A program made the translations under genes and the position numbers. A model generated the notes under the pieces. That model searched no databases and was not told the origin of the DNA. It worked only from the letters and a program-made list of their open reading frames with translations. From an uncultured bacterium (GTDB taxonomy: Bacteria > Auribacterota > JACPWU01), in contig CAZXEQ010000003.1 in NCBI GenBank assembly GCA_964640155.1, forward strand, positions 194,189-226,188: a stretch of DNA of 32,000 bases. The letters are read 5' to 3'. Numbering within the stretch: the stretch's first letter is position 1; every line of letters begins with the position of its first letter. This document shows positions 11,694 to 25,941 of the stretch, one piece after another.

Positions 11694-12333
11694 AAAGATT
11701 TACTTGTTGGGTGGCGGCGGACATGGTCGCGTGGTTTTAGGTGCATTATTAGCGAGTCAATTACAAGTCTCTGGCATTCTTGATCCGAAATTTGAATTGG
11801 GACATCAGATATTTGGTGTGAGTATTTTAGGAGGAAATGAGTTCTTAGAAAGTCTTTCACAGCAAGATGTTATTTTGCTCAATGGTCTTGGCGCAAACCC
11901 TGATACTAAAAACAGAAAAAAAATTTTTAAACTAATGCAATTAAAAGGGTTTCAATTCATTTCTGTTCAGCATCCTTCATCGGTGATCGGACAAGATTGT
12001 GAGTTAGGTGAAGGGACTCAAATCATGGCTGGGGTTGTGGTTCAAAACCAAGTGAAAATGGGAGATAATTCTGTCATCAATACACATGCTAGTATTGATC
12101 ACGATTGCATAATTGATGCACATGTTTTTATTTCCCCAGGTGTTGTCTTGTGTGGAAATGTAGCAGTGGGGGATTCAGCTTTTATTGGTGCTGGTGCCAT
12201 TGTATTGCCAGGAATTCAGATTGGTTCTAGTGCTATAGTTGGTGCTGGTGCTGTTGTAACCAAATCAGTTCCTGAAAGATGGATCGTTGCGGGTAATCCA
12301 GCAAAAAAAATAGGAGTAAGAAATCATGGCTAA
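11686..12333 (+). CDS. NeuD/PglD/LegH-family hexapeptide-repeat N-acetyltransferase
   Basis: 215 aa. N-terminal GGGGHGRVV nucleotide-binding-like segment, then left-handed beta-helix hexapeptide repeats (GDSAFIGAGAIVLPGIQIGSSAIVGAGAVV). Confidence 0.85.
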   Translation: MTRKIYLLGGGGHGRVVLGALLASQLQVSGILDPKFELGHQIFGVSILGGNEFLESLSQQDVILLNGLGANPDTKNRKKIFKLMQLKGFQFISVQHPSSVIGQDCELGEGTQIMAGVVVQNQVKMGDNSVINTHASIDHDCIIDAHVFISPGVVLCGNVAVGDSAFIGAGAIVLPGIQIGSSAIVGAGAVVTKSVPERWIVAGNPAKKIGVRNHG

Positions 12334-13375
12334 TTGGAAAGATGTTATTATTTCTCCTGAAACATCGCTTAATGATGCGATTGCCAAGATCGATGCTTCT
12401 GGTTTGCAGGTGGCGCTGGTTTTAGATACTGACAATACTTTGCTGGGTATATTGACGGATGGGGACATTCGACGTGCTATTCTCATGGGAAAAAATCTTC
12501 AGATTTCTGTATCATTGGTTATGAATCCCCATGCTATTTCACTTCCTTCCTCGGTGTCACGTGATCAGATGCTAGCACTGATGAAGAAAAAAGTTATTCA
12601 TCATCTTCCTCTGGTCGATGAAGCAGGTCGGATGGTGGATTTAATCACTCTTAACGAACTTATCGGAGCCGTCGAACGTTCTAATTGGGTTGTGTTAATG
12701 GCCGGAGGGTTGGGAGAGCGTTTACAGCCGCTCACAAATGGATGTCCTAAGCCTCTTTTAACGGTGGGAGATAAACCCATTCTGGAAAATATCTTAGAGA
12801 GTTTTGCCGGACAGGGATTCAAACGTATTTTTTTATCGGTCAACTATAAGGCAGACATGATTCGTAATCACTTTGGTTTGGGAGATCGCTGGGGAGTGCA
12901 GGTAGACTATTTACATGAAAACACACGACGAGGTACTGCTGGTGCATTATCCCTTCTTCCTGAAAAACCGACAGAACCTATTGTTGTGGTGAATGGAGAT
13001 CTAATTACCCGTGCCAACTATGACAATCTTTTGCAGTTTCACAATGCTCATGGGGCTGTTGCAACCATGGCTGTGCGTCAATATGATTTTCAGGTTCCTT
13101 ATGGTGTTGTCCGTCTTGATGGTATGTGTATTAAAGCAATTGACGAAAAATTGGTTCAAAAGTTTTATATTAATGCTGGTATTTATGTTTTATCTCCTGA
13201 AGCTCTAGATTATTTACCGAATGAATCTCTTATTGATATGCCAACATTATTTGAAAACATTATAGCTGCTGGTAAGAAAACAACAGCTTACCCCCTCCGA
13301 GAATATTGGGTGGATATCGGCAAGTTAGATGAGCTTGAGAGAGCGCAACGGGAGTGGACGGTAAACAATTTGTGA
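12326..13375 (+). CDS. CBS-domain-containing sugar-1-phosphate nucleotidyltransferase (PtmE-like)
   Basis: 349 aa. The N-terminal ~110 aa look like a CBS pair (GILTDGDIRRAIL, HHLPLVDEAGRMVDLIT). A nucleotidyltransferase signature VVLMAGGLGERLQPLTNGCPKPLL follows. C. jejuni PtmE of the GDP-linked legionaminic acid pathway has this architecture. Confidence 0.8.
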   Translation: MANWKDVIISPETSLNDAIAKIDASGLQVALVLDTDNTLLGILTDGDIRRAILMGKNLQISVSLVMNPHAISLPSSVSRDQMLALMKKKVIHHLPLVDEAGRMVDLITLNELIGAVERSNWVVLMAGGLGERLQPLTNGCPKPLLTVGDKPILENILESFAGQGFKRIFLSVNYKADMIRNHFGLGDRWGVQVDYLHENTRRGTAGALSLLPEKPTEPIVVVNGDLITRANYDNLLQFHNAHGAVATMAVRQYDFQVPYGVVRLDGMCIKAIDEKLVQKFYINAGIYVLSPEALDYLPNESLIDMPTLFENIIAAGKKTTAYPLREYWVDIGKLDELERAQREWTVNNL

Positions 13376-14286
13376 AAGCTTTGGTGATTGGTTATGGTTC
13401 TATTGGACAGCGCCACACAAGATTGTTGGCTAAATTAGGATGTCAAGTTGCTGTAATGAGCCGCCGCTCAATTAATTTCGCACCTCATTATTTTGATTTG
13501 ACTCAAGCATTAGTTGATTGGAATCCAGAGTATGTTGTAGTAGCAAATCGAACGAACGAACATTATCAAATAATTAAATCTTTGGCTAATGAGGGCTTTC
13601 AGGGGAGGATACTCGTTGAAAAACCTCTTTTCGAGCATCTGTCAAAAGTTCCTCAGCGTAACTTTTCTCTTGAAGCGGTCGCTTATAATTTGCGTTGTCA
13701 TCCATTACTAAAGAAATTGAAATCTTTATTGGATAATTCCGGGGAATTAGTTACAGCAAATATTTATGTTGGTTCATATTTACCTAGCTGGAGACCGAAT
13801 GTAGACTATCAACAGAGTTATTCGGCATGTAAAGATCAGGGTGGGGGGGTGCTAAGGGATCTTAGCCATGAAATTGATTATACTTTTTGGCTTTTTGGAT
13901 CATGGCATCGATTGACAGCAGCGGGGGGGAAATTAAGCCATTTAGAAATAGATAGCGATGATGCGCATACCTTACTTATGGAAACCCAACGTTGTCCTTT
14001 GGTTAGCATGCATTTAAATTATTTAGATCGTATTCCTCGAAGAGAAGTGGTCGTGAATACGAATCAGCATACCATTCGAGTGGATTTAATTAATAATACG
14101 ATTACAATCAATGGCGTTCAGGAGATGATAAAAGTTGATTTAGACGATACTTATCGCGCGGAGCATCAGGCTGTGTTGGCTGGGAATGCTAAAGAACTTT
14201 GTACATTTGATGAGGCTCTAGAAACGTTAAAGACTATTGAATCTGTAGAACGTGCTGCTACGTTGCATACTTGGATAGCAAGATGA
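13372..14286 (+). CDS. Gfo/Idh/MocA-type NAD(P) oxidoreductase (PtmF-like position)
   Basis: N-terminal Rossmann KALVIGYGSIGQRH and a family EKP block (ILVEKPLF). GTG 13372 gives a GTGA overlap with the upstream stop. The alternative start is GTG 13354 as tracked. Confidence 0.7.
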   Translation: MKALVIGYGSIGQRHTRLLAKLGCQVAVMSRRSINFAPHYFDLTQALVDWNPEYVVVANRTNEHYQIIKSLANEGFQGRILVEKPLFEHLSKVPQRNFSLEAVAYNLRCHPLLKKLKSLLDNSGELVTANIYVGSYLPSWRPNVDYQQSYSACKDQGGGVLRDLSHEIDYTFWLFGSWHRLTAAGGKLSHLEIDSDDAHTLLMETQRCPLVSMHLNYLDRIPRREVVVNTNQHTIRVDLINNTITINGVQEMIKVDLDDTYRAEHQAVLAGNAKELCTFDEALETLKTIESVERAATLHTWIAR

Positions 14287-15836: not shown

Positions 15837-17120
15837 TTGTTGATCTATATCATAAATAAACTAAATTCCCTTAAGATTTTTCCCTATCTGATTGTATCGC
15901 CATTGCCCTATGCAATTGGGACTGCATCTGAAGAAATATATTTTGCTGTTTTGAGATCATCAGTTACAAATAAGAAATTAATTTTGTTTTGCCCCATGAA
16001 GTTTACTGAAGTTTTGAGTTATCATCGATGTAATTTAATGTTGTTCAAGATTACCTTTAAGGGACAATATCAACCTTTTGTTGGAGTTAAGATTGTTTTA
16101 GGATTTGTAATTTCTCTTGAGTTTTTCTTTCGTCGGACCATTTCATTATTATTAAGAAAAGTATTTAAATTTCAAACTTCTGAAAGCTGGAGATTTCCTA
16201 GATTAGGAATAAAAGAGATTTATTATACTGGTATTCCTACGGACAGAAAAGAAATAGGGGATTGTTGCTTTGAGAAACTGCCATCCAAATCCTTTAATAT
16301 ATCTATACCTAGCTTTACTGAACAGAAATGTGCAGATAAATTAAGACATTTTGGTTTAGACTCAGGTCAAAAATATGTTTGCCTGCATGTTAGAGAGTCA
16401 GGGTATAGAAGTGACAAAGGTAGGCGTGAATATAGAAACGCTGAAATAAAAAATTATGTAGATGGTGTTTCCAAGCTTATTAATGATGGATATTTGATAT
16501 TTAGATTGGGAGATGATTCGATGACTCCATTCCCCGTTAAGATAAAAGGTTTAATTGACTATCCATTTATGGCTTTGAAATCTGATGAAATGGATCTTTA
16601 TTTGTTAAAGAATTGTGATTTTTTCATAGGCATGCAATCAGGATTACTCGATACAGCTTGGCTTTTTCAAAAGCCAGTTCTTATTACAAACATGTATAAC
16701 GCCTTTACAACATTTCCACGCAATATAGAAGATAGGGGCATCTTTAAACATGTTAAACTTAAAGGTACAAATAATTTTTTTTCTTTAAGAGAATGGTTTC
16801 AGCAATCATGGTCTGCACATAGTTATTCACGTGAAATCTCGGAGTATGAATTTATTGAAAATTCTACAGAAGAAATTTATGATGCCATTAATGAATTTAT
16901 TTTGATTCAAACTAAACGGTTGGATTCCAGTCCGAATGAATTGCAGAAAAAGTTTAATCATCTTTTGAAAGAGACTTTGCGTAATCATATTTTAAAAAAG
17001 AAAACGAGTGCCATAGATACGTTTTCCAACTTGCCAAACTTGCAAAAGGTGAGAATGGGTAGAATGATTATGAGCTCACAAGGTGCTATCTCTGCCAGCT
17101 TTTTGGGAGAAAATTTTTGA
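15837..17120 (+). CDS. Uncharacterised putative transferase, paralogue of 5197-6456
   Basis: 427 aa. Shares the conserved blocks listed for 5197-6456 (YVCLHVRESGY, YRNAEIKNY, GYLIFRLGDD, IDYP, EMDLYL, CDFFIG, ENSTEEI). The start is uncertain: TTG 15837 is the only upstream in-frame start that keeps the conserved N-terminal block. Confidence 0.5.
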   Translation: MLIYIINKLNSLKIFPYLIVSPLPYAIGTASEEIYFAVLRSSVTNKKLILFCPMKFTEVLSYHRCNLMLFKITFKGQYQPFVGVKIVLGFVISLEFFFRRTISLLLRKVFKFQTSESWRFPRLGIKEIYYTGIPTDRKEIGDCCFEKLPSKSFNISIPSFTEQKCADKLRHFGLDSGQKYVCLHVRESGYRSDKGRREYRNAEIKNYVDGVSKLINDGYLIFRLGDDSMTPFPVKIKGLIDYPFMALKSDEMDLYLLKNCDFFIGMQSGLLDTAWLFQKPVLITNMYNAFTTFPRNIEDRGIFKHVKLKGTNNFFSLREWFQQSWSAHSYSREISEYEFIENSTEEIYDAINEFILIQTKRLDSSPNELQKKFNHLLKETLRNHILKKKTSAIDTFSNLPNLQKVRMGRMIMSSQGAISASFLGENF

Positions 17121-17136
17121 ATGAGTTTGGATATTA

Positions 17137-18438
17137 ATGAGCTTTTTTGATCATCCTATAAATCGCTTTATGCAGGGCATGCCCTCATCTTGCGAGTGGA
17201 CGATTGCAGATGAAAGCTTAATCGAGGCAATATGTCATGGGACCACTATTCAAAGAGGTCCTCGAACAACGATTTTAAGAAAATTCTTAACCTTGGGATG
17301 CAGACTGAATCTTTCTCTGTTTTTTATATCCTTATCCGGTGTTCTTTTAACGATAAGACTTATCATGAAAGAACTTCTGTTAGCCTTTAGATCAAAAAAA
17401 ATAAGGGTAGGAGATAAGGAAAAATTAAATATTTTTATTGGTTTTGGTGCTCGTAATGAAGAGTTTCTATTTCATAAATATTGTATAGAGAAGAAATCTC
17501 GTGTGGTTTATGCAGATTTAAACCGGTTGGGAGCTACAGGAATTAGATTTTTTAGAATAGGATTAGTCTTAAAATTTTTAAGAAATGCTATTGGTGATAT
17601 ATCAAAAGTTGTTTCAGCTCTTCCATGTGACTATAAAATTAAAAAAATTGAATTTATTGTCTCTGCAGTTATCAGGTTAGCAAATTATGCTTATGCAAGA
17701 GCTTGGTGGAGAAATCTAGTTATAAAAAATTGGATTGATGAAGCTTGTTTTATTTCAACAGATCCGATTGCATATGCTTCTGTCTATGAAGGGGTTTGGT
17801 CCATATATATGCAACACGGCCTGCTTTCTAAATATTTGCCTTTTCCAGATTTTAATGAAATTAAGACTCTTACTTATTTTGAGTGTGACTATCTTCAAAG
17901 AAAATATCCTAAAGCTTTAATTCGCTTCCCTCAGAACATACAGACCATCTCTTTGAAAAAAAGAAAACCTCGGGTACTTATCGCTTCTGAAATAAGATCT
18001 CCCGAAGATTTGGGTTTAATTGTTCCTTTACTGGCAGATATATCAAAGCTGGGTTTAACCATTCACATTCGACCGATTAAAGAAGAAGTGTTGCTAAAGT
18101 TTTTAGATTCATTACAACTCAATATCAATATTTGTGTTGAAACATCAACAGGTTCATTTGATAAAATATTAGAGCAACTGCAGCCCTGCTTTGTCGCAGG
18201 ATGGGTATCAACGGCCCTTATTGATGCTCTCAATCATGGAATAATTCCTATTAGTGTAGTTAAAGAAAATGATCGTTATGCACATAGAATGTTGTATCCA
18301 GTATACCGCTTTTGTTTGATGTGGCCTAACGATCAATCCTCTATTAAAGAAGCATTTACATGTACAGAAACCTACTCCCAAATTTTTCACAGGCTGATAT
18401 ATAAAGGGGAAAGAACTAATTCCTTTTCATGCGCGTAA
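17137..18438 (+). CDS. Hypothetical protein (orphan; possible membrane-anchored transferase)
   Basis: 433-aa uninterrupted ORF, tightly packed between neighbours, with coding-like composition. One hydrophobic segment (LNLSLFFISLSGVLLTIRLIM). The C-terminal half alternates beta/alpha-like segments (RVLIASEIRSPEDLGLIVPLL, CFVAGWVSTALIDALNHGIIPISV). I recognise no family motif. Confidence 0.5.
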   Translation: MSFFDHPINRFMQGMPSSCEWTIADESLIEAICHGTTIQRGPRTTILRKFLTLGCRLNLSLFFISLSGVLLTIRLIMKELLLAFRSKKIRVGDKEKLNIFIGFGARNEEFLFHKYCIEKKSRVVYADLNRLGATGIRFFRIGLVLKFLRNAIGDISKVVSALPCDYKIKKIEFIVSAVIRLANYAYARAWWRNLVIKNWIDEACFISTDPIAYASVYEGVWSIYMQHGLLSKYLPFPDFNEIKTLTYFECDYLQRKYPKALIRFPQNIQTISLKKRKPRVLIASEIRSPEDLGLIVPLLADISKLGLTIHIRPIKEEVLLKFLDSLQLNINICVETSTGSFDKILEQLQPCFVAGWVSTALIDALNHGIIPISVVKENDRYAHRMLYPVYRFCLMWPNDQSSIKEAFTCTETYSQIFHRLIYKGERTNSFSCA

Positions 18439-18442
18439 TATT

Positions 18443-19666
18443 ATGACTCTTATTCATAAATCTTCTAGAGAAATAGCTAACACATATTCCTTTAATGATG
18501 CTGATCAATGGTTATTGACTAATGCTTTTAATATAGATGAAGTACTTGCAATTGTTTTTTTAGGACGAAGCGGAAGTGTTTTTCTGGGAAGTTTGCTAGA
18601 TAATCATCCTCAGATCATTATGTTGCCTGGAACTCAGTTATCATTTTATTATGATTTTTGGGAAAGTTATGGACATTCGCTTCAAAAAGACCATTTAATT
18701 AAAACTTTTTGCGCCTATTTTTCCGCTTTTTTTGATGTTTTTGCATTTAGTGCCTTGTCATTGAGAACACAGCCAGCCCTTGTTCTTGGCTTTTCTGAAA
18801 TGGGGAGTGAACGTAATGAAAAGATTGAAGTAAATAAAGAGAAGTTTATACAGGTGCTACATTTTATTTTAGATAAAGTTTCCTCTGTTGATCGAAAAAG
18901 TTTTTTTCGAGCTATTCATATTGCATACACCATTGCTAGCAACAGGAGTTCTCAGCTTCATCAATCTAAGTTGCCTATGATCGTTTATCAATTGCATATG
19001 AATTGGCCTCCTTTAGTTAAGCATTTGATATCTGATTTCCCAAAAACAAAAATTATTCATATGATAAGAGAACCTTTTCAAACGATAGGATCACATTTCA
19101 AGCATTCAGGATACAACTGTCATGTTATGAATCACTTTTATAATGATGCATTTTTATACGGAGGTAAAGATCGCTCAAGGGCAATAAAACTTGAAGATTT
19201 ACATACAGAGCCAAAACAAACTTTAGAAAAAATAATTAAATGGATAGGTATTGGTTGGTCTGATTCACTTCTAGAGTCAACTTTTAATGGAAAAAAATGG
19301 TGGAACTTAAAAGATGTAGAGCAAGTCCATGGATTTAATAAAGTGATTATCTCAAAAAATCATAGCAGTTTTTATTATAAATTTGATGAGTATCGATTAA
19401 ATGTTTTGTATTTTAAACGATTTAAATTATGGGGATACCCATGCAGAGATGTTTCGAAGCTCGAGAGGTTTTTAATATTACCCTTATTACTCATGCCTTT
19501 TAAAATGGAACTTATATACTATCGAAATGATATTTCATCAAGAAAATTAGTTCGTCTGAAGAATATTATATTCGATTGGGTCGATCCACGAAGAAGGCGT
19601 AGCTATTTAGTCAAAGCGTGGAGATATTCGTTGTCACACGAACTACGTGAAGTGCCACTTTTGTAA
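18443..19666 (+). CDS. Sulfotransferase-fold protein (3'-phospho-nucleotide-donor-dependent transferase)
   Basis: 407 aa. 5'-PSB-like loop GRSGSVFLGSLLDNHP, 3'-PB-like block IIHMIREPFQTIGSHF, and a C-terminal KLEDLHTEPKQTLEKIIKWIGI block, as in bacterial Sulfotransfer_3-type proteins. Confidence 0.7.
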   Translation: MTLIHKSSREIANTYSFNDADQWLLTNAFNIDEVLAIVFLGRSGSVFLGSLLDNHPQIIMLPGTQLSFYYDFWESYGHSLQKDHLIKTFCAYFSAFFDVFAFSALSLRTQPALVLGFSEMGSERNEKIEVNKEKFIQVLHFILDKVSSVDRKSFFRAIHIAYTIASNRSSQLHQSKLPMIVYQLHMNWPPLVKHLISDFPKTKIIHMIREPFQTIGSHFKHSGYNCHVMNHFYNDAFLYGGKDRSRAIKLEDLHTEPKQTLEKIIKWIGIGWSDSLLESTFNGKKWWNLKDVEQVHGFNKVIISKNHSSFYYKFDEYRLNVLYFKRFKLWGYPCRDVSKLERFLILPLLLMPFKMELIYYRNDISSRKLVRLKNIIFDWVDPRRRRSYLVKAWRYSLSHELREVPLL

Positions 19667-19784
19667 AGATCGTTTAGGGTTTCATGGACGAAGAAAGAGT
19701 GTAGGGCGGACTGATTTAGTTTGTCCTTAAAAATGTGATACATCTCAAAGGTCTTAAAAGTAAACCAGCAGTTGAGGGCAGTCG

Positions 19785-20312
19785 ATGACAAATTTCATTC
19801 CTACTTTGTTCTGGCTAACGGGTCTTTCGGGTGCAGGAAAAACCACGTTAGCATCGTTATTAACAAATAAATTGAGAGATCGTGGTTGCCCGGTTGTTTT
19901 TTTAGATGGCGACAATTTGAGGGAAGTTTACAAAAATCATTTTGGATATGATCGGGAAGGACGATTAGCAGCCAGTTTACAATATGCACGTTTATGTAAA
20001 ATATTGACGGAACAAAAAATTCATGTGGTTTGTGCAACCATCTCTCTGTTTCATCAAACACGGGATTGGAATCGGAAAAATATTAAAGATTATATTGAAG
20101 TTTTTGTTGATGTTCCTTTAGCGGAACTCATAAAACGTGATAGCAAGCAAATTTATTCCAGAGCAAAGGCAGGAGAATTAAAAAATATTGTTGGTATGGA
20201 TATAGAGCCAGAAATGCCAAAGCAAGCAGATATTATTATTCAGAATCATAGTAATGCTACTATTGAAGACAATGTGAATTCAATTTTAGAAATTTATGAT
20301 GCAAGATTTTAG
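19785..20312 (+). CDS. Adenylylsulfate-kinase-family small kinase (CysC-like; better fit to Cj1415-type cytidine diphosphoramidate 3'-kinase)
   Basis: 175 aa. P-loop GLSGAGKTTLA and an LDGDNLR block typical of APS kinases. The region after LDGDN is diverged from canonical CysC and the protein is shorter than typical CysC. The gene context is decisive (see findings). Confidence 0.75.
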   Translation: MTNFIPTLFWLTGLSGAGKTTLASLLTNKLRDRGCPVVFLDGDNLREVYKNHFGYDREGRLAASLQYARLCKILTEQKIHVVCATISLFHQTRDWNRKNIKDYIEVFVDVPLAELIKRDSKQIYSRAKAGELKNIVGMDIEPEMPKQADIIIQNHSNATIEDNVNSILEIYDARF

Positions 20313-20328
20313 TCAAAGGAGAAAATAG

Positions 20329-21093
20329 ATGCAAACAGTATGGGACTATACCAAACTGGCAAATGCTTATATTAAAAGGCCTGATTATTCTGATACAGCC
20401 ATCGACCAAATGTGTCATTTGATGGGGGTTAATGTAGATAGCAAAATTTGTGATATTGGGGCGGGTGCAGGTCATTTAACCATAGCACTTGGGAAACGAG
20501 CTCTAAGCGTTAAGGCTGTAGAACCCAATGATGCGATGCGAGAAAATGGAATTGAGAGAACTAAAAAATTCAAAAATATTAGCTGGTATAAAGGAACTGC
20601 GGAGCAAACCCATCAAGATGAAAATCAATTTGATGCAGTAACATTTGGCTCTTCATTTAACGTATGTGATCAAAAAATCGCTTTGAAAGAATCCTTTCGT
20701 ATTGGTAAATCAGGTGCTTGGTTTGCATGTATGTGGAATCATCGTGATTTAAACGACTTCATTCAAAAAAATATTGAGGATATTATCAAATCTAATTTAC
20801 CAAATTATGATTATGGATTGCGTCGCCAGGACCAAGAACCTATTTTAAAAGCTTCTGGATTGTTTGAGGTTGTTAAATTTATAGAGGGCCCTGTGTTACA
20901 TCAACAATCTATTGATGAATGTGTTGAAGCTTGGCGCTCTCATGGGACATTGCACAGACAAACTAACGAAAATGATAAATTATTTAATAGCATTATCAGC
21001 GAGATTGAGACGTTTTTACGGTCTTTAAGAGTGAAAGATATTACTATTCCCTATGTCACTCGAATATGGGTGGCTAAATTTCTTAAGAAATGA
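20329..21093 (+). CDS. Class I SAM-dependent methyltransferase
   Basis: 254 aa. AAGGAG SD upstream. SAM motif I CDIGAGAGHLT, followed by an acidic post-I residue (VEPND). Confidence 0.8.
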   Translation: MQTVWDYTKLANAYIKRPDYSDTAIDQMCHLMGVNVDSKICDIGAGAGHLTIALGKRALSVKAVEPNDAMRENGIERTKKFKNISWYKGTAEQTHQDENQFDAVTFGSSFNVCDQKIALKESFRIGKSGAWFACMWNHRDLNDFIQKNIEDIIKSNLPNYDYGLRRQDQEPILKASGLFEVVKFIEGPVLHQQSIDECVEAWRSHGTLHRQTNENDKLFNSIISEIETFLRSLRVKDITIPYVTRIWVAKFLKK

Positions 21094-21102
21094 AGGGCTG
21101 CT

Positions 21103-23463
21103 ATGCTAACGGAAGTTAAAGAAGTCTATAAAAAAAAGATAAGTTTTTCTACCAAAGCTGAAACTCTTTTTAATTTGTCCGATAAGCTATCGACTGCAAA
21201 AGTATTACCATTGTATTTTTTTACGGTATTTGCTTGGAAAACAGATAGAAAAACAGTTTTATCAGAACTACAACAGGTTGATTGGTTTTATCAGAAATTA
21301 ATTGTTCGTAGCAGTGCTATTGGTGAAGATAGTGAAAAAAGTTCATTGGCAGGACAATACACTTCTATGATTAATGTAGAAGGTGGCGAAGGTTTTATTT
21401 CTGCTGTAGAAAATGTTATTTCTTCTTTTGATTCAGACAATTTAAATCATCAAGTGTTGGTTCAACCGTATTTATCTGACGTCACAACATCAGGCGTTGT
21501 ATTTGGCCGAGATCCTAACACAGGTGGCCCTTATGTCGTTGTTAATTATAATGATACAAGCGCAGATACTACTTCTATTACTTCAGGTGTTTCTAATCAT
21601 AAATGTTATATTCAGCATCATAAATCTCCTCTTCACGTAGATGAAAATGCTCCTATGAGTAAGATAATTAATCTTATCTTTGAGCTTGAAGATTTATTTA
21701 ATACCGTTTATTTAGATGTTGAATTTGCAATAAATAAACGACATGAATTATATTTATTTCAAGTTAGACCGCTCATCAGTCAAACAAAATGTTCAGTTGT
21801 AACACAGGAACATCAAAGAGCGATTGAACGTGTTGCAAATCGCATTTTTCTGGGTATGAAACCCCACCCCTATTTATATGGAAAACAAACAGTATATGGG
21901 GTAATGCCTGATTGGAATCCTGCTGAAATTATTGGTATCAGACCTAAACCCTTAGCTTTAAGTCTTTATCGAGAGCTTGTGACGGATGCTGTCTGGGCGT
22001 ATCAACGAGACAATTATGGCTATGCAAATTTGCGTAGTTTTCCTTTGCTCGTTGATTTTGAAGGGCTACCCTATATTGATGTGCGAGTTAGTTTTAATTC
22101 TTTTTTACCAAAGGAATTACCCCCTGATCTTGCAGAGAGGCTGGTTAATTACTATCTGGATCGACTCATTGACTGTCCTGGGTTACATGACAAAGTCGAA
22201 TTTGATATTGTTTTTTCTTGTTATACCCTTGATCTTCAGAAACGATTAGGTGCTTTAAATAATTATGGTTTTGATGATAATGATTGCTTGGCAATTTACC
22301 AATCATTAATTAAATTAACCAATCAAATCATTCATAATCAGCAAGGTCTTTGGAGAAAAGATTTAGAAAAAATTGAAGAATTACGCCATCGTCAACAACA
22401 GCTGTTTCAATCTGATCTTGATTCCATTTCAAAAATGTATTGGATTTTAGAAGATTGCAAACGTTATGGCACATTACCTTTTGCTGGTCTTGCTCGCGCT
22501 GGTTTTATTGCCATTCAAATTTTAAAATCATTTATTACCGTAGGGATCATTAACGAAGAGGAATATGCTAGATTTTTATCTTCTGTTAATTCAGTTAGTT
22601 CCACAATGAATGATGATTTTCGAAAAATGTCCAAAAGTAATTTTTTAGAAAAGTATGGGCATTTGAGGCCGGGAACATATGATGTTTTATCTTTACGATA
22701 TGATGAAGCAGCAGAACTTTATTTTGATTGGCAAAATAAAACTGTACCAGAGCACGAAAGACATTCTTCTTTTTCATTAACCGTGCAGCAGTTGTCTAAG
22801 ATTCAAGAACAAATTGATAGAGATGGATTACAAATTACCGCTCTTGAATTGCTTGAATTTATTAAGTTTGCCATTGAATCACGTGAGTATTCGAAATTTA
22901 TTTTTAGTCGAAGCGTGAGTGAATTTTTGAAAATATGTACCGGATTCTCTTCTCAATTTAATATCACACGCGATGACTGTGCTTACATTAACTTGAACAC
23001 GATTACCTCATTGTATAGTTCTAGTATTGATCCGCAAGAAGCATTAAGTAAAAGCATTGAGATTGGTAAAAAGCATTATCAGATGACCTCGGCTATGACT
23101 TCCCCCCCCTTAATAACACATCCATCACAAGCTTGGGCTTTTGAGGTTCCAGAGACTTTCCCTAATTTTATTACTCAAAAAAGTGCTATGGGAGAAGTTG
23201 TATTCCCTGATATTCAGAAACAATTAATAGCAAATGCAATATTAATGATTCCAAGTGCTGATCCTGGATATGATTGGATTTTTTCCCATAAAATTGCTGG
23301 ATTTATCACCAAATACGGTGGTGTTAATTCTCATATGGCCATTCGTGCGGGTGAATTAGGTATTCCTGCAATCATTGGCGTTGGTGAAATCAAATTCAAT
23401 CAATGGAGTCAGGCAAAGAAATTGCGTATTGATTGTTTAAATGCTCAAGTACAATTACTATGA
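21103..23463 (+). CDS. ATP-grasp (PPDK_N-type) / C-terminal phosphohistidine swivel-domain kinase, Cj1418-like (candidate L-glutamine kinase)
   Basis: 786 aa. N-terminal nucleotide-binding block VRSSAIGEDSEKSSLAGQYTS. PEP-utilisers mobile-domain block GGVNSHMAIRAGELGIPAIIGVG at the extreme C-terminus, with candidate phospho-His at residue 744 (CAT 23332-23334). Nothing follows the swivel domain, so there is no PEP/pyruvate TIM-barrel and this is not PpsA/PPDK. Confidence 0.75.
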   Translation: MLTEVKEVYKKKISFSTKAETLFNLSDKLSTAKVLPLYFFTVFAWKTDRKTVLSELQQVDWFYQKLIVRSSAIGEDSEKSSLAGQYTSMINVEGGEGFISAVENVISSFDSDNLNHQVLVQPYLSDVTTSGVVFGRDPNTGGPYVVVNYNDTSADTTSITSGVSNHKCYIQHHKSPLHVDENAPMSKIINLIFELEDLFNTVYLDVEFAINKRHELYLFQVRPLISQTKCSVVTQEHQRAIERVANRIFLGMKPHPYLYGKQTVYGVMPDWNPAEIIGIRPKPLALSLYRELVTDAVWAYQRDNYGYANLRSFPLLVDFEGLPYIDVRVSFNSFLPKELPPDLAERLVNYYLDRLIDCPGLHDKVEFDIVFSCYTLDLQKRLGALNNYGFDDNDCLAIYQSLIKLTNQIIHNQQGLWRKDLEKIEELRHRQQQLFQSDLDSISKMYWILEDCKRYGTLPFAGLARAGFIAIQILKSFITVGIINEEEYARFLSSVNSVSSTMNDDFRKMSKSNFLEKYGHLRPGTYDVLSLRYDEAAELYFDWQNKTVPEHERHSSFSLTVQQLSKIQEQIDRDGLQITALELLEFIKFAIESREYSKFIFSRSVSEFLKICTGFSSQFNITRDDCAYINLNTITSLYSSSIDPQEALSKSIEIGKKHYQMTSAMTSPPLITHPSQAWAFEVPETFPNFITQKSAMGEVVFPDIQKQLIANAILMIPSADPGYDWIFSHKIAGFITKYGGVNSHMAIRAGELGIPAIIGVGEIKFNQWSQAKKLRIDCLNAQVQLL
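23102..23109 (+). repeat. Homopolymeric C8 tract inside the Cj1418-like kinase CDS
   Basis: Read directly: act tcc ccc ccc tta (T-S-P-P-L). Confidence 0.95.
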
Positions 23464-24065
23464 ATCTGATTGCTATATCTCAGCGTACTCAATATATTTC
23501 TGAATATGAAGAGACAAGAGATTGTCTCGATCAACGCTGGCATGAATTCTTAACTTCTTGCCAGATAACCCCTTTACTGATTCCCAATCATCCAAAAATT
23601 GTGTGTGAGATCATTGAGGAAAATATACTTCAAGGTGTTTTATTGAGCGGTGGAAACGAGTCACCATTGCGGACAGAAACTGAAAATTTACTGTTAGAGT
23701 ATGCCATTCAAAAAAGATTACCTGTATTAGGCATTTGTCATGGAATGCAAATGATCCAGCAATATTTTGGTGTAAAGCTTCGAAAGATTACTGGTCATGT
23801 AATAGAGGATCAAGAAATATTAATTCATGGCATGCCGGATAGAGTGAATAGTTTCCATAATTATGGAACAACACAAACGTCGTGCGAACTTACTGTATGG
23901 GCAAAAGCAAGAGATGGCGTAATAAAAGCTATTAAACATAGTCATTTGCCCATTATGGGAATGATGTGGCATCCAGAAAGATGTCATCCCTTTAAAATAC
24001 GCGATATTCAATTTATTAAAAATTTTTTTTCCGGAGAACGATTGCAGTGCGGGCAATTATATTAG
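23460..24065 (+). CDS. Class I glutamine amidotransferase / peptidase C26-like gamma-glutamyl hydrolase (Cj1417-like)
   Basis: About 201 aa. Nucleophile elbow GICHGMQ and the WHPE His/Glu block. ATG 23460 forms an ATGA overlap with the upstream stop. The tracked start 23433 lies inside the previous gene. Confidence 0.8.
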   Translation: MNLIAISQRTQYISEYEETRDCLDQRWHEFLTSCQITPLLIPNHPKIVCEIIEENILQGVLLSGGNESPLRTETENLLLEYAIQKRLPVLGICHGMQMIQQYFGVKLRKITGHVIEDQEILIHGMPDRVNSFHNYGTTQTSCELTVWAKARDGVIKAIKHSHLPIMGMMWHPERCHPFKIRDIQFIKNFFSGERLQCGQLY

Positions 24066-24784
24066 CGGCAGGTCGTGGAAAGCGTATAGGCGATTTAACT
24101 GAAAGACAGCCCAAGGGAATGCTGAATTTGCATGGTAAACCATTTGTCGAATGGCAGATGCATGCTTTGCGTCAAACAGGCATTACTGAAATGGCAATTG
24201 TTAAAGGATATAGAGGTGATATTTTTTCTTATCCTGTTGCTTATTTCAATAATCCACGGTGGGAAAAGACCAATATGTTATCCACTTTGCTATGTGCGCA
24301 AGAGTGGTTAAGCCAGGATACCTGTATTGTTAGCTATTCAGATATTATTTATACGCAAGAAGCAGTTCAAAAGCTTGCAAGTTCACAAGGAGATATTGCA
24401 ATTACTTTTGATGCAAATTGGCTAAAATTATGGGAGCAACGTTTTGATGATCCTTTAAGTGATGCTGAAATTTTCAAATACGAAAAAGATACTCTTATTG
24501 AGGTTGGAGGCAAGGCAGAAGGATTGCATGAAATTCAGGGGCAGTATATGGGGCTCTTAAAGTTTACGGTGAGAGGATGGAAAAAGACTAAAGAATTTTT
24601 AAGTCAGTTATCCGACGATATCATTGATAAAATGGATATGACGACTTTATTAAAATTAATGTTGAAAAATAATTTTGAAATTTTTGTTACAGCAATTAGT
24701 ACACCATGGTGTGAAGTGGATAACATGAATGACTATGAGCTTTGTCAAAAAATTATGAATAAAAATGTGCTTTTACGATCTTGA
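24047..24784 (+). CDS. LicC/MobA-like nucleotidyltransferase (Cj1416-like candidate CTP:phosphoglutamine cytidylyltransferase)
   Basis: 245 aa. N-terminal (V/M)RAIILAAGRGKRIG signature, and a C-terminal WCEVDNMNDYE block like LicC-type cytidylyltransferases. GTG start overlaps the upstream gene by 19 nt. Confidence 0.75.
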   Translation: MRAIILAAGRGKRIGDLTERQPKGMLNLHGKPFVEWQMHALRQTGITEMAIVKGYRGDIFSYPVAYFNNPRWEKTNMLSTLLCAQEWLSQDTCIVSYSDIIYTQEAVQKLASSQGDIAITFDANWLKLWEQRFDDPLSDAEIFKYEKDTLIEVGGKAEGLHEIQGQYMGLLKFTVRGWKKTKEFLSQLSDDIIDKMDMTTLLKLMLKNNFEIFVTAISTPWCEVDNMNDYELCQKIMNKNVLLRS

Positions 24785-24933
24785 GTCAGTTTTGTGCCCA
24801 TCGGTAAATAAGCCCTGTATTGAATCTTGATATATCCCATAAGAAATTGTGTATTGCTTTTGCCTAGTGATAAGCATTTAATTAGTCGCTGTTCTCTTAA
24901 ATGATATTTTCTTAAATTATTTTAGAAGAACTT

Positions 24934-25941
24934 ATGAAAACTTCTTTAGAACTAACTCCTACAAATCTTAATAAAAAATTTATTTGGAAAACAGATATTT
25001 CTCCTGTCGCTTGGGATCAATTGCTTGCCAAAGAGGGGGGGCATCCTTTGCAGTCTGCATTATGGGGGAACGCTCGTAAAGAAGTCGATAGAATCATTGA
25101 TTATCGATGGGCTGCTTTTTTAAAAGACGAGCTAGTCTGGATAGGACGTTTTGAAGAAAGAAGTCTTTCTGGAGTAGGCAAAGTCGCATGGATACCCAAA
25201 GGCCCTATAGCTGTTAAGAACAGTGAGACAGTTCAAGCACAAAGAGAATTTATTTCTTTATTGAGAGATAAAGGATATATGTTGGTCATTTTTGATCCCT
25301 GCTTGGTTGATTCTACTTTTTTTTTATCTTATGTTCCTCTTTTAAAATCTTACACTATTCTGATTGATTTGAATCGTGGGAAAGAGGATTTATGGAGAGG
25401 ACTTGATAAACAGTGGAGATACGGAGTTCGCGCAGCAGCAAGGGCAGGAGTCGTCATTGAACAAACAAAAGACATGCATGATATAGCAAATTTTTATTCT
25501 TTATGCACCCAATTGGGCAAAAAAAAAGGATTTGAAGTTTCAGGATCACAAGAACTGATAGCAGAACTATTAAAAAACTCCCATGAGACTGCTGTACAGA
25601 CGCAGCTCTTTGTTGTTCGCTGCCAAGGTAAAATCGCGTCAGGAGCAGTGATATTGAAAAGCGGAAGATCAATATATTATTTTTGGGGTGCTACGGATCG
25701 TAGTTTTAGCAAACAACGTGTGGCCGAAGCTGTACAATGGGGTGTCATAGAATGGGCATTGGAGCAGGGAGTAGAGACGTATGATCTTGGTGGGATTGAT
25801 CCAATAAAAAATCCAGGTGTATATACTTTTAAAAGTAAAATGGGGGGTAAAGAAGTTTCCTTGTCAAGATTGTATGGATATCCTCTTAACATGACGGGTC
25901 AAGTTGTACTTAAATTAGGACGTTGGCTAAAAAGATTCTGA
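24934..25941 (+). CDS. FemAB-family (aminoacyl-tRNA-dependent peptidyl/aminoacyl) transferase-like protein
   Basis: 335 aa. N-terminal WDQLLAKEGGHPLQSALWGNARK block and a later YYFWGATDR block, as in FemA/FemB/FemX-like proteins of Gram-negative exopolysaccharide loci. Preceded by the longest intergenic gap in the window (149 nt). Confidence 0.7.
   Translation: MKTSLELTPTNLNKKFIWKTDISPVAWDQLLAKEGGHPLQSALWGNARKEVDRIIDYRWAAFLKDELVWIGRFEERSLSGVGKVAWIPKGPIAVKNSETVQAQREFISLLRDKGYMLVIFDPCLVDSTFFLSYVPLLKSYTILIDLNRGKEDLWRGLDKQWRYGVRAAARAGVVIEQTKDMHDIANFYSLCTQLGKKKGFEVSGSQELIAELLKNSHETAVQTQLFVVRCQGKIASGAVILKSGRSIYYFWGATDRSFSKQRVAEAVQWGVIEWALEQGVETYDLGGIDPIKNPGVYTFKSKMGGKEVSLSRLYGYPLNMTGQVVLKLGRWLKRF

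What the first reader, a model, noticed from the sequence alone, without database searches (positions are those of the whole stretch)
19785..24784. Five-gene cassette matching the Campylobacter O-methyl phosphoramidate (MeOPN) pathway, likely to be mis-read as sulfation plus PEP synthase
Five consecutive, tightly coupled genes are present:
- a 175-aa CysC-like kinase;
- a SAM methyltransferase;
- a 786-aa ATP-grasp protein whose phosphohistidine swivel domain is the last domain;
- a ~200-aa class-I amidotransferase/C26 hydrolase (GICHGMQ, WHPE);
- a LicC-like nucleotidyltransferase.

This is the enzyme set established for MeOPN biosynthesis in C. jejuni. Cj1418 is L-glutamine kinase. Cj1416 is CTP:phosphoglutamine cytidylyltransferase. 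Cj1417 is gamma-glutamyl-CDP-amidate hydrolase. Cj1415 is the CDP-amidate 3'-kinase. Cj1419 and Cj1420 are methyltransferases.

Sizes and domain orders agree. Gene order differs, and only one methyltransferase is present here. The cassette sits inside a legionaminic-acid glycan locus rather than a Campylobacter capsule locus. That implies a phosphoramidate-decorated glycan in a different setting.
Basis: partly seen in the sequence, partly recalled or inferred. Interest (0 to 1): 0.85.

Follow-up and report, generated by a model that had tools for sequence, protein, structure and literature searches.

The report
Phosphoramidate (MeOPN-type) glycan decoration gene cassette
Five adjacent genes in a Coxiella-like bacterium's surface-sugar locus most likely build the activated phosphorus-nitrogen (phosphoramidate) donor known from the Campylobacter capsule, so automatic labels such as 'sulfate kinase' and 'PEP synthase' misread them; the same cassette turns out to be common across bacteria.

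Summary
Five intact, tightly packed + strand genes lie at 19785-24784: an APS-kinase-like kinase, a SAM methyltransferase, a 786-aa ATP-grasp/phosphohistidine enzyme, a class-I amidotransferase-type hydrolase and a LicC-like nucleotidyltransferase.

- The large enzyme passes NCBIfam equivalog NF004508. It is 52% identical to a protein IMG names glutamine kinase.
- The hydrolase's best model is gamma-glutamyl-CDP-amidate hydrolase, though below that model's cut-off.
- The kinase passes subfamily NF004041 and fails true apsK. E. coli CysC does the reverse.
- In a tree, canonical APS kinases separate from 74 cassette-linked kinases in 50 of 50 bootstraps.
- The five genes co-occur next to each other in about 70-77 of 80 loci from many phyla.
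- The kinase, cytidylyltransferase and hydrolase each occur fused to the large enzyme elsewhere.

Three corrections apply. The cassette is widespread, not special to this locus. Cj1419/Cj1420 have no proven role. The MT-kinase-hydrolase-transferase order actually matches C. jejuni.

One addition: the upstream sulfotransferase-fold gene (18443-19666) is the likeliest phosphoramidate transferase. This is inferred, not shown.

No direct alignment to Cj1415-Cj1422 was possible. Verdict: a new member of a known kind.

The parts
18443..19666 (+). 407-aa sulfotransferase-fold protein (ST407). It is the candidate phosphoramidate transferase that would use the PAPS-like donor 3'-phospho-CDP-amidate.
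   Evidence: - Pfam Sulfotransfer_3, 1.7e-10.
- AF2 model with pLDDT 94. Its top PDB fold matches are all PAP(S)-dependent sulfotransferases: TPST2, CurM/OLS ST and Stf1, probability 1.0.
- The family keeps the GRSGS 5'-phosphate loop and an R209-x7-S217 3'-phosphate motif.
- A homologue lies directly upstream of K-MT-GK-H-CT in L002, L087 and (with an ABC transporter between) Leptospira L086.
- A family member lies within 10 kb of the cassette in 18-25 of 80 loci, sometimes as tandem pairs.
19785..20312 (+). 175-aa APS-kinase-fold kinase (K175), predicted cytidine diphosphoramidate 3'-kinase (Cj1415 role).
   Evidence: - NF004041 scores 196.8 (cut-off 127). TIGR00455 apsK scores 129.5 (cut-off 138.7), a fail.
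- E. coli CysC does the reverse. The IMG-named CDP-amidate kinase P0198 behaves like the window protein.
- 45% identity to P0198.
- Both Phe positions conserved in canonical APS kinases are replaced: position 55 is H/Y and position 135 is V/I. The ISP Pro is replaced by Leu.
- Canonical APS kinases form an exclusive clade in 50 of 50 bootstraps.
- Present next to the glutamine-kinase homologue in 77 of 80 loci, and fused to it in P0097, P0113 and P0207.
20329..21093 (+). 254-aa class I SAM methyltransferase (MT254), the candidate O-methyltransferase for the phosphoramidate. Its substrate is unknown.
   Evidence: - Pfam Methyltransf_11/25 and UbiE-like. No specific NCBIfam family.
- A homologue lies in the cassette in 68 of 80 loci, in two identity classes of about 30-35% and 45-56%.
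21103..23463 (+). 786-aa predicted L-glutamine kinase (GK786; Cj1418 role). It has an N-terminal ATP-grasp, a central helical domain and a C-terminal swivelling phosphohistidine domain (His744).
   Evidence: - NF004508 equivalog scores 960.6 bits (cut-off 501). PpsA, PPDK and RPH models are far below their cut-offs.
- Pfam PPDK_N plus a C-terminal PEP-utilizers domain, with no PEP-utilizers_C.
- H744, in GGVNSHMAIRAGE, is invariant in 60 homologues.
- AF2 model with pLDDT 88.6. The best full-length fold match is rifampin phosphotransferase at 14-16% identity. The N-terminal part matches ATP-grasp ligases.
- Homologues at 50-73% identity are named 'glutamine kinase' by IMG.
23460..24065 (+). 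201-aa class-I glutamine-amidotransferase/C26-type hydrolase (H201), predicted gamma-glutamyl-CDP-amidate hydrolase (Cj1417 role). The longest ORF starts at TTG 23433.
   Evidence: - Best NCBIfam model is NF045546, gamma-glutamyl-CDP-amidate hydrolase: 124.1 bits, E 7.5e-36, full length, but below the 250 cut-off. The next best family scores 58 bits.
- GICHGMQ and WHPE motifs are present.
- 45% identity to the IMG-named hydrolase P0200, which itself scores 121.7 on NF045546.
- Present in 72 of 80 loci, and fused to the glutamine-kinase homologue in P0335.
24047..24784 (+). 245-aa LicC-like nucleotidyltransferase (CT245), predicted CTP:phosphoglutamine cytidylyltransferase (Cj1416 role).
   Evidence: - Pfam NTP_transf_3, 8e-17.
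- Best solved relative is LicC CTP:phosphocholine cytidylyltransferase, 1jyk.
- 48% identity to the IMG-named 'L-glutamine-phosphate cytidylyltransferase' P0201.
- Present in 75 of 80 loci, and fused to the glutamine-kinase homologue in P0313 and P0303.

Best explanation
The cassette makes an activated phosphoramidate donor by the route worked out for C. jejuni Cj1415-Cj1418. It then decorates a surface glycan with an (O-methyl) phosphoramidate.

Steps assigned by homology:
1. [quoted passage not shown]
2. CT245 condenses L-glutamine phosphate with CTP to give CDP-L-glutamine.
3. H201 hydrolyses off glutamate, using its Cys-His-Glu triad, to leave cytidine diphosphoramidate.
4. K175 phosphorylates the 3'-OH to give 3'-phospho-CDP-amidate, a PAPS look-alike.

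Steps inferred only:
5. The sulfotransferase-fold protein ST407, encoded just upstream, binds this 3'-phosphonucleotide donor as sulfotransferases bind PAPS. It transfers the phosphoramidate to a sugar hydroxyl.
6. MT254 supplies the O-methyl group.

The acceptor is unknown. It is presumably the legionaminic-acid-type glycan encoded around the cassette.

My confidence that the five genes are the phosphoramidate-donor pathway is about 0.8. My confidence that ST407 is the transferase is about 0.45.
For: **Family assignment**
- GK786 passes equivalog NF004508 and fails all PpsA, PPDK and RPH models.
- H201's best model by 66 bits is the named gamma-glutamyl-CDP-amidate hydrolase.
- K175 passes NF004041 and fails apsK. 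E. coli CysC does the reverse.

**Independent naming**
- An IMG contig with the same K-MT-GK-H-CT order carries the KEGG-derived names of all four Cj1415-18 activities.
- Its proteins are 45-52% identical to the window's.

**Kinase**
- Canonical APS kinases form a clade that excludes all 74 cassette kinases in 50 of 50 bootstraps.
- The two Phe residues conserved in canonical enzymes are replaced. By my recollection of the APS-kinase structures, these stack on adenine. The P-loop, DGD, Arg46 and Arg60 are kept.

**Linkage**
- Counts in 80 loci from many phyla: GK 80, K 77, CT 75, H 72, MT 68. Every other window gene except ST scores 7 or fewer.
- K, CT and H each occur fused to GK.

**Structure**
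- The GK model has the three-domain layout of rifampin phosphotransferase, with an invariant His744.

**ST407**
- It has a sulfotransferase fold with intact 5'- and 3'-phosphate motifs.
- It recurs next to the cassette in Coxiellaceae, Deltaproteobacteria, Leptospira and others.
- A CysQ-like 3',5'-bisphosphate nucleotidase sits next to the cassette in 10 loci. That fits disposal of a 3'-phospho-CMP by-product.

**Pathway chemistry**
- Cj1415-18 make CDP-phosphoramidate 3'-phosphate, the 'likely donor' (PMC11800397).
Against: - No direct alignment with Cj1415-Cj1422 could be made. The sequences are not in the PDB, were not among the 80 best genome loci, and the primary papers are not held.
- H201 is below the NF045546 equivalog cut-off (124 against 250). 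CT245 and MT254 match only generic families.
- IMG names are automatic.
- No homologue of the genetically defined Campylobacter transferases Cj1421/Cj1422 could be tested.
- ST407 keeps all the hallmarks of a genuine PAPS sulfotransferase, and nothing in the sequence shows cytidine rather than adenosine specificity.
- One ST407 homologue at 29% identity (P0173) and another at 25% (P0190) are not next to a cassette.
- The methyltransferase step is unproven even in C. jejuni.
- No chemistry is available for this organism's glycan.
Confidence: 0.8

Rival explanations
1. The cassette makes the cytidine diphosphoramidate-type donor, but the end product is not the Campylobacter O-methyl phosphoramidate on a sugar hydroxyl. 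It could be an unmethylated phosphoramidate, a phosphoramidate diester bridging two residues, or a decoration of a non-glycan acceptor. MT254 would then methylate something else, and a transferase other than ST407 would do the transfer.
For: - The methyltransferase and transferase steps are unassigned biochemically even in C. jejuni.
- MT254 matches only generic SAM-methyltransferase families.
- 12 of 80 loci show no MT homologue, and 55 or more show no ST homologue.
- Other loci carry different candidate transferases: Glyphos_transf in L084 and an unknown 345-aa family in 15 loci.
Against: - An MT sits inside the cassette in 68 of 80 loci, usually between K and GK or just after CT. This argues that it acts in the pathway.
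- The cassette sits in glycan loci wherever the context could be read.
Confidence: 0.15
2. The literal annotation is right. K175 is an adenylyl-sulfate kinase that makes PAPS, and ST407 sulfates the glycan. The 786-aa protein, the amidotransferase and the nucleotidyltransferase are unrelated sugar-activation or PEP-utilising enzymes.
For: - K175 has the APS_kinase fold (3e-37) and is 32-35% identical to solved APS kinases.
- ST407 has a sulfotransferase fold with PAPS-type phosphate-binding motifs.
- RefSeq labels the Azospirillum copy of the cassette this way.
Against: - K175 fails the apsK equivalog and passes the subfamily that true CysC fails.
- It lies outside the canonical clade in 50 of 50 bootstraps and has lost both conserved Phe residues.
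- No ATP sulfurylase is present in the window.
- The kinase travels with GK, H and CT in 77 of 80 loci and is fused to GK in several proteins. A sulfation role does not explain this.
- The 786-aa protein lacks the PEP/pyruvate domain.
Confidence: 0.04
3. The 786-aa protein is a small-molecule or antibiotic phosphotransferase of the rifampin-phosphotransferase type, not a glutamine kinase.
For: The best full-length structural match is rifampin phosphotransferase: 5hv1 and 5fbs, E about 1e-20, with the same three-domain order.
Against: - Identity to RPH is only 14-16%.
- The NCBIfam RPH model NF041857 scores 37.9 against a cut-off of 999.
- The protein is embedded in a glycan locus and obligately linked to the hydrolase, cytidylyltransferase and kinase.
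- Homologues at 50-73% identity are named glutamine kinase by IMG.
Confidence: 0.01

Closest known systems
C. jejuni NCTC 11168 MeOPN biosynthesis genes: Cj1415 (CDP-amidate 3'-kinase), Cj1416 (CTP:phosphoglutamine cytidylyltransferase), Cj1417 (gamma-glutamyl-CDP-amidate hydrolase), Cj1418 (L-glutamine kinase), plus Cj1419/Cj1420 (putative methyltransferases) and Cj1421/Cj1422 (MeOPN transferases)
   Same: - The same four enzyme types are present, plus a SAM methyltransferase.
- Sizes match the NCBIfam profile lengths: 176, 198 and 789 against 175, 201 and 786 aa.
- The MT-GK-H-CT order is collinear with Cj1419-1418-1417-1416, by locus numbering (my knowledge).
- A transferase candidate lies upstream, where Cj1421/1422 lie.
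- The cassette is embedded in a surface-polysaccharide locus.
   Different: - The kinase gene lies at the start of the cassette instead of the end.
- There is one methyltransferase instead of two.
- No poly-G phase-variation tracts were noted.
- The host is a Coxiellaceae-like gammaproteobacterium.
- The locus is of the legionaminic-acid/ABC-transporter/Wzy-like type, not a kps capsule locus.
- The candidate transferase has a sulfotransferase fold. Whether Cj1421/1422 share that fold was not testable here.
- H201 falls below the Campylobacter-tuned equivalog cut-off.
Sulfate activation and transfer: CysC APS kinase, PAPS, PAPS-dependent sulfotransferases and CysQ
   Same: - K175 has the APS-kinase fold and ST407 the sulfotransferase fold.
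- The logic is the same: a 3'-phosphorylated nucleotide donor, a group transfer, then removal of the 3',5'-bisphosphate by-product. A CysQ-like gene sits next to the cassette in 10 loci.
   Different: - The nucleotide would be cytidine and the transferred group a phosphoramidate.
- K175 fails the apsK model and lies outside the canonical clade.
- There is no ATP sulfurylase in the locus.
Rifampin phosphotransferase (RPH) and the PEP synthase/PPDK superfamily
   Same: - GK786 has an ATP-grasp domain plus a swivelling phosphohistidine domain.
- The three-domain order, with the His domain last, is that of RPH.
   Different: - Identity is only 14-16%.
- There is no PEP/pyruvate TIM-barrel domain.
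- The central domain is family-specific and very highly conserved. Alignment A3 has a mean column identity of 57% across phyla.
MeOPN-like cluster reported in Borg extrachromosomal elements of Methanoperedens (bioRxiv 10.1101/2024.11.05.622173)
   Same: It is also a non-Campylobacter cluster with glutamine-kinase, hydrolase and cytidylyltransferase homologues, interpreted as phosphoramidate biosynthesis.
   Different: - That cluster was assigned by structure prediction only.
- It has four genes, one fused to PEP mutase.
- No kinase, methyltransferase or sulfotransferase-fold partner is described.

Membership tests
Campylobacter-type phosphoramidate (MeOPN) donor pathway | An L-glutamine kinase: ATP-grasp, a central domain, then a C-terminal phosphohistidine domain with the catalytic His | tested here: met
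   - NF004508 equivalog scores 960.6, cut-off 501.
- Domain order confirmed.
- His744 is invariant in 60 homologues.
- 52% identity to the IMG 'glutamine kinase' P0059.
- Catalytic activity itself is not testable here.
Campylobacter-type phosphoramidate (MeOPN) donor pathway | A CTP:phosphoglutamine cytidylyltransferase (Cj1416 type) | tested here: inconclusive
   - Only generic NTP_transf_3/LicC-like matches in Pfam, NCBIfam and the PDB.
- 48% identity to the IMG-named L-glutamine-phosphate cytidylyltransferase.
- 75 of 80 loci have a homologue. Fusions to GK exist.
- Homology and linkage are strong. Substrate specificity is not shown.
Campylobacter-type phosphoramidate (MeOPN) donor pathway | A gamma-glutamyl-CDP-amidate hydrolase (Cj1417 type, class-I GATase triad) | tested here: inconclusive
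   - NF045546 is the best model (124.1 bits, E 7.5e-36, full length) but scores below the equivalog cut-off of 250.
- The Cys and His motifs are present.
- 45% identity to the IMG-named hydrolase, which also scores only 121.7 on NF045546.
Campylobacter-type phosphoramidate (MeOPN) donor pathway | A cytidine diphosphoramidate 3'-kinase distinct from APS kinase (Cj1415 type) | tested here: met
   - Passes NF004041 (196.8 against 127) and fails apsK (129.5 against 138.7). E. coli CysC does the reverse.
- Separated from canonical APS kinases in 50 of 50 bootstraps.
- Shows signature substitutions.
- That NF004041 was seeded on Cj1415 is my recollection, not tested.
Campylobacter-type phosphoramidate (MeOPN) donor pathway | Direct sequence similarity to Cj1415-Cj1420 themselves | not tested
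   The sequences could not be obtained. There is no PDB entry. No Campylobacter locus is among the 80 best. afdb50 was unavailable. A name look-up of AT-rich representatives failed. The primary papers are not held.
Campylobacter-type phosphoramidate (MeOPN) donor pathway | A MeOPN transferase of the Cj1421/Cj1422 type | not tested
   No reference sequence was available. The only candidate in the window is the sulfotransferase-fold ST407.
Campylobacter-type phosphoramidate (MeOPN) donor pathway | A P-N-bonded O-methyl phosphoramidate on the glycan | not testable with these tools
   This needs 31P or 1H-31P NMR, or MS, of the glycan.
Canonical adenylyl-sulfate kinase (CysC, TIGR00455 apsK) | A score above the apsK equivalog cut-off and placement within the canonical clade | tested here: not met
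   - Scores 129.5 against a cut-off of 138.7. E. coli CysC scores 296.8.
- Lies outside the canonical clade in 50 of 50 bootstraps.
- Both conserved Phe residues and the ISP Pro are replaced.
PEP synthase / pyruvate phosphate dikinase | A PEP/pyruvate-binding TIM-barrel domain, and the His domain in the middle of the protein | tested here: not met
   - No PEP-utilizers_C hit, and the His domain is C-terminal.
- PpsA and PPDK models score 33-67 bits against cut-offs of 598-1063.
PAPS-dependent sulfotransferase (for ST407) | A sulfotransferase fold with 5'-PSB and 3'-PB nucleotide-phosphate motifs | tested here: met
   - Pfam Sulfotransfer_3 and Foldseek top hits.
- GRSGS and R209-x7-S217 are nearly invariant.
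- Fold membership is met. Whether the donor is PAPS or 3'-phospho-CDP-amidate is not testable here.

The most novel reading that the evidence does not exclude
The ST407 family would be a sulfotransferase-fold phosphoramidate transferase. It would take the PAPS look-alike 3'-phospho-CDP-amidate instead of PAPS. The conserved in-cassette methyltransferase would be the missing O-methylating enzyme. Together with the distribution found here, this would mean that phosphoramidate-decorated surface glycans are a widespread bacterial trait. At least 576 GTDB species representatives carry the glutamine-kinase homologue, including Leptospira, Pseudomonas, Azospirillum, Clostridium, Paenibacillus, Chlamydiales and Coxiellaceae. 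The literature still treats the modification as a Campylobacter curiosity.
Probability: 0.4. Interest if true: 0.75.

Novelty: new member of a known kind. Interest (0 to 1): 0.55.

Why it matters
MeOPN is a phage receptor and a serum-resistance factor in Campylobacter. Reviews still describe it as found only there, and describe glutamine kinase as 'C. jejuni-specific'.

Showing the full cassette in a Coxiella/Legionella-like bacterium, and as a conserved module in hundreds of species, has three consequences.
- RefSeq-style labels such as 'adenylyl-sulfate kinase', 'PEP-utilizing enzyme', 'gamma-glutamyl-GABA hydrolase' and 'phosphocholine cytidylyltransferase' are misleading for this cassette.
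- P-N-containing glycans are probably far commoner than the chemistry literature records.
- The two unsolved steps, transfer and methylation, now have comparative-genomics candidates that can be assayed: the sulfotransferase-fold ST407 family and the in-cassette methyltransferase.

Tried and rejected
**Attempts to get Cj1415-Cj1422 for direct alignment.** All failed.
- PDB sequence searches returned only APS kinases, GMP synthase subunits, LicC and PEP synthases.
- The Raushel primary papers are not held.
- The afdb50 fold library was unavailable.
- A name look-up of the ten most AT-rich representatives gave no Campylobacter names.

**P0190.** This is an ST407 homologue with 82 members on a 1.73-Mb contig, and I suspected it was Campylobacter. 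It lies in a flagellin-glycosylation-type locus without the cassette.

**Other transferase candidates.** I tested three proteins for hidden sulfotransferase folds by hhalign against the ST407 family.
- The unknown 345-aa family found next to the cassette in 15 loci: probability 35% as a single sequence and 4% as a profile, so inconclusive.
- The 650-aa N-terminus of the Azospirillum kinase fusion: no match.
- The window's orphan 433-aa ORF: no match.

**Promoter and terminator scan of 15.5-25.2 kb.** Nothing above shuffled expectation, so no operon boundaries could be called.

**Legionella longbeachae capsule paper.** It mentions phosphoramidate only when citing Campylobacter work.

**Tree building.** A first BLOSUM-distance bootstrap script timed out. 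I replaced it with a faster Kimura-distance NJ.

The third large protein search was not used. Only the best 120 hits are listed, so no query I could design would have reached Campylobacter.

Full report
**1. What is in the sequence**

Five + strand ORFs occupy 19785-24784 exactly as described.
- K175: 175 aa, 19785-20312.
- MT254: 254 aa, 20329-21093.
- GK786: 786 aa, 21103-23463.
- H201: 201 aa from the ATG at 23460 that the public gene call uses, or 210 aa from TTG 23433. Ends at 24065.
- CT245: 245 aa, GTG 24047-24784.

The gaps are 16 and 9 nt, followed by overlaps of 4 and 19 nt.

Pfam gives the following:
- APS_kinase.
- Methyltransf_11/UbiE.
- PPDK_N plus a C-terminal PEP-utilizers domain, with no PEP/pyruvate-binding domain.
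- Peptidase_C26/GATase.
- NTP_transf_3.

The best solved relatives are APS kinases, GMP-synthase glutaminase subunits and LicC. For GK786, only the roughly 55-residue His domain matches PEP synthases and rifampin phosphotransferase.

The window is a one-strand glycan locus. It holds:
- a LegC-family aminotransferase (TIGR04181, 531 against 420);
- NeuC- and NeuB-type enzymes above their cut-offs;
- a NeuD/PglD-type acetyltransferase;
- a CBS-nucleotidyltransferase and a CMP-sugar synthetase;
- an MsbA/PglK-like ABC transporter;
- GT4 glycosyltransferases;
- a Wzy_C-like protein and a polysaccharide deacetylase.

The cassette and the three genes upstream of it form a low-GC block, 0.31-0.37 against about 0.40.

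The identical protein is on record from a 357-kb NCBI contig and a Logan assembly. The nearest named relatives are Coxiellaceae MAGs, with GK at 72-84% identity.

**2. Are these the phosphoramidate enzymes?**

*NCBIfam scores*

| Protein | Model | Score | Cut-off | Result |
|---|---|---|---|---|
| GK786 | NF004508 (equivalog, 789 positions) | 960.6 | 501 | pass |
| GK786 | PpsA, PPDK, PigC and RPH models | 26-67 | 598-1700 | fail |
| H201 | NF045546 (gamma-glutamyl-CDP-amidate hydrolase) | 124.1 | 250 | best model, below cut-off |
| K175 | NF004041 | 196.8 | 127 | pass |
| K175 | TIGR00455 apsK | 129.5 | 138.7 | fail |
| E. coli CysC | NF004041 | 102.1 | 127 | fail |
| E. coli CysC | TIGR00455 apsK | 296.8 | 138.7 | pass |

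The H201 match to NF045546 is full length at E 7.5e-36. The next family scores only 58 bits.

*Independent naming.* IMG/JGI names several GK homologues at 50-73% identity 'glutamine kinase'. On one such contig (L084) the genes lie in the same K-MT-GK-H-CT order. IMG names them as follows:
- 'cytidine diphosphoramidate kinase';
- UbiE-like methylase;
- 'glutamine kinase';
- 'N5-(cytidine 5'-diphosphoramidyl)-L-glutamine hydrolase';
- 'L-glutamine-phosphate cytidylyltransferase'.

The window's proteins are 45%, 33%, 52%, 45% and 48% identical to these. The IMG-named kinase and hydrolase behave like the window's on the NCBIfam models.

The pathway chemistry itself comes from the literature. Cj1415-Cj1418 make CDP-phosphoramidate 3'-phosphate from L-Gln, ATP and CTP, and this is the likely donor (PMC11800397).

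**3. The kinase is not a CysC**

I aligned 74 cassette-linked kinases with five canonical APS kinases: two methanogen, one Aeropyrum, human PAPSS1 and E. coli.
- Kept in both groups: the P-loop, DGD, Arg46, Arg60 and Lys121.
- Phe at position 55 becomes His or Tyr.
- Phe of the 'FTG' motif (position 135) becomes Val or Ile.
- Pro of the 'ISP' motif becomes Leu.
- Cassette-specific residues appear: Cys71, Gln77, Thr85, Trp95-Asn96 and Tyr103.

By my recollection of the P. chrysogenum and human structures, the two Phe residues sandwich the adenine of APS. Their loss would fit a change of base. That structural reading is from memory, not from a tool.

In NJ trees the five canonical enzymes form a clade excluding every cassette kinase in 50 of 50 bootstraps.

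**4. The five genes are one conserved module**

The 80 best loci span many groups:
- Acidobacteriota, Planctomycetota, Verrucomicrobiae, Gemmatimonadales and Chlamydiales;
- Sericytochromatia/Obscuribacterales;
- Lachnospiraceae, Clostridium, Paenibacillus and Cohnella;
- Pseudomonas, Chitinibacter and Azospirillum.

Within 10 kb of GK, homologues occur as follows:

| Gene | Loci out of 80 |
|---|---|
| K | 77 |
| CT | 75 |
| H | 72 |
| MT | 68 |
| ST | 18 |
| Any other window gene | 7 or fewer |

Several of the misses are truncated contigs.

The 50%-identity representative library holds 1576 GK-family clusters at E <= 1e-30. Some are about 1000 aa long. Pfam shows these as fusions of GK with APS_kinase, NTP_transf_3 or Peptidase_C26/GATase. 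Three partners each fused to GK in different lineages is strong evidence for a single pathway.

The labels are 'adenylyl-sulfate kinase', 'class I SAM-dependent methyltransferase', 'PEP-utilizing enzyme', 'gamma-glutamyl-gamma-aminobutyrate hydrolase family' and 'phosphocholine cytidylyltransferase family'.

**5. Structure of GK786**

The AF2 model (pLDDT 88.6) has three parts:
- an N-terminal ATP-grasp, with Foldseek hits to D-Ala-D-Ala ligases and PurK;
- a large helical middle domain;
- a C-terminal His domain.

The only full-length matches are rifampin phosphotransferase structures, at 14-16% identity. So the protein shares RPH's architecture but is not an RPH. His744 in GGVNSHMAIRAGE is invariant in 60 homologues, and the family is unusually conserved, with a mean column identity of 57%.

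**6. The missed neighbour**

The gene just upstream (18443-19666, ST407) matches Sulfotransfer_3. Its AF2 model (pLDDT 94) matches only PAP(S)-dependent sulfotransferases. The family keeps a GRSGS loop and an R-x7-S motif. These have the form of the sulfotransferase 5'- and 3'-phosphate-binding motifs, by my knowledge.

The product of the four-enzyme pathway is a 3'-phosphorylated nucleoside 5'-diphospho compound, which is a PAPS analogue. ST407 is therefore a natural candidate for the transferase.

Linkage supports this.
- ST sits directly upstream of K-MT-GK-H-CT in the nearest Coxiellaceae MAG (L002) and in a Deltaproteobacteria MAG (L087).
- In Leptospira alexanderi (L086) an ABC transporter lies between ST and the cassette.
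- An HMM of the family finds a member in 25 of 80 loci, with tandem pairs in three.
- At least 13 of its 77 database homologues share a longest-contig length with one of the 120 listed GK homologues, which suggests the same contig.
- A CysQ-like 3',5'-bisphosphate nucleotidase accompanies the cassette in 10 loci. That fits clearing a 3'-phospho-CMP by-product.

Against: more distant ST407 relatives (25-29% identity) are not linked to a cassette. Nothing in the sequence distinguishes cytidine from adenosine donors. I could not test homology to Cj1421/Cj1422. This step is an inference, and I put it at about 0.4-0.45.

**7. Comparison with what is known**

The cassette works like, and by every available test belongs to, the Campylobacter phosphoramidate-donor pathway.

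By the C. jejuni locus numbering (complement strand; my knowledge), the order there is Cj1422-1421 (transferases), 1420-1419 (MTs), 1418 (GK), 1417 (H), 1416 (CT), 1415 (K). So MT-GK-H-CT, and the upstream position of the transferase, are shared. Only the kinase has moved, and only one MT is present here.

The methyl-transfer step is unproven. Raushel's group states that Cj1419/Cj1420 have no assigned function. The presence of an MT inside the cassette in 68 of 80 loci is indirect support that one acts in the pathway.

The literature still calls MeOPN Campylobacter-only and the glutamine kinase 'C. jejuni-specific'. A 2024 preprint noted a similar cluster in Borg elements. IMG/KEGG already auto-names the four enzymes. 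The finding is therefore a new member of a known kind, in a new host and locus type, and not a new system.

**8. Limits**

- There is no direct alignment to the Cj proteins.
- H201 is below its equivalog cut-off.
- CT245 and MT254 rest on linkage and on IMG-named homologues.
- The acceptor sugar and the final structure are unknown.

Noticed in passing
window 5197-6456 and 15837-17120; L086 8694-9935: Two paralogous ORFs (27% identical), with no Pfam hit, are TIGR04372-family glycosyltransferases (230 and 164 bits). A homologue sits immediately upstream of the sulfotransferase-like gene in Leptospira alexanderi. There the order is GT - ST - ABC transporter (47% identical to window 6444-8264) - cassette. 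This hints at a larger shared module.
   Followed up: partly
window 17137-18438: A 433-aa ORF lies between the TIGR04372 glycosyltransferase and ST407. It has no Pfam or NCBIfam match, no homologue in any of the 80 cassette loci, and no profile similarity to the sulfotransferase family. It is an orphan, possibly an acceptor-specific enzyme.
   Followed up: partly
window 16001-25000: This low-GC block (0.31-0.37 against about 0.38-0.44 in the flanks) covers the second TIGR04372 GT, the orphan ORF, ST407 and the five-gene cassette. That fits a horizontally acquired or serotype-variable segment.
   Followed up: no
P0097, P0113, P0207, P0303, P0313, P0335 (proteins from elsewhere): There are natural fusion proteins of the glutamine-kinase homologue with an APS-kinase-like domain, with an NTP_transf_3 cytidylyltransferase-like domain, or with a C26/GATase hydrolase domain. 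The Azospirillum plasmid copy has an 846-aa protein with an unknown 650-aa N-terminus fused to the kinase.
   Followed up: partly
L014 8404-9219, L084 3934-4722 and 8 further loci: An inositol-monophosphatase/CysQ-family gene lies next to the cassette in 10 of 80 loci. IMG names it 3'(2'),5'-bisphosphate nucleotidase. None is in the window. It fits removal of the 3'-phosphate from the nucleotide by-product.
   Followed up: partly
L009, L015, L017, L019, L021, L026, L027, L034, L035, L041 (8158-9198), L042, L045, L059, L060, L069: An unknown family of about 345 aa with no Pfam hit accompanies the cassette in 15 loci, mostly Acidobacteriota. Only one of these (L019) also has an ST407 homologue. 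It shows a weak, inconclusive resemblance to the C-terminal 'LEDL..DP' region of sulfotransferases. It may be an alternative transferase.
   Followed up: partly
window 125-4105; L004, L005, L087: Split E1-dehydrogenase/transketolase-like genes, a zinc alcohol dehydrogenase and an RmlD-like reductase open the window. The E1/transketolase pair also lies near the cassette in L004, L005 and L087. Function unexplored; possibly a branched or modified sugar.
   Followed up: no
window 24934-25941: A FemAB/GNAT-like (Acetyltransf_6) gene lies directly downstream of the cassette. It has no homologue in the other cassette loci. It may add an amino acid or acyl group to the glycan.
   Followed up: no
L082 (ENA contig of 1.73 Mb), 10001-13588: Distant ST407 relatives (25% identity), one fused to TPR repeats, lie among flagellin genes and Glyco_transf_41 genes. 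There is no phosphoramidate cassette within 10 kb. This looks like a flagellin-modification locus.
   Followed up: no
plasmids NZ_CP140104.1 (Vibrio alfacsensis), NZ_CP016951.1 (Cupriavidus taiwanensis), NZ_AP023281.1 (Agrobacterium vitis) and others: A second tier of full-length homologues of the 786-aa protein, at 32-36% identity, is carried on large plasmids. They are annotated 'PEP-utilizing enzyme'. I did not check whether these sit in the same cassette.
   Followed up: no
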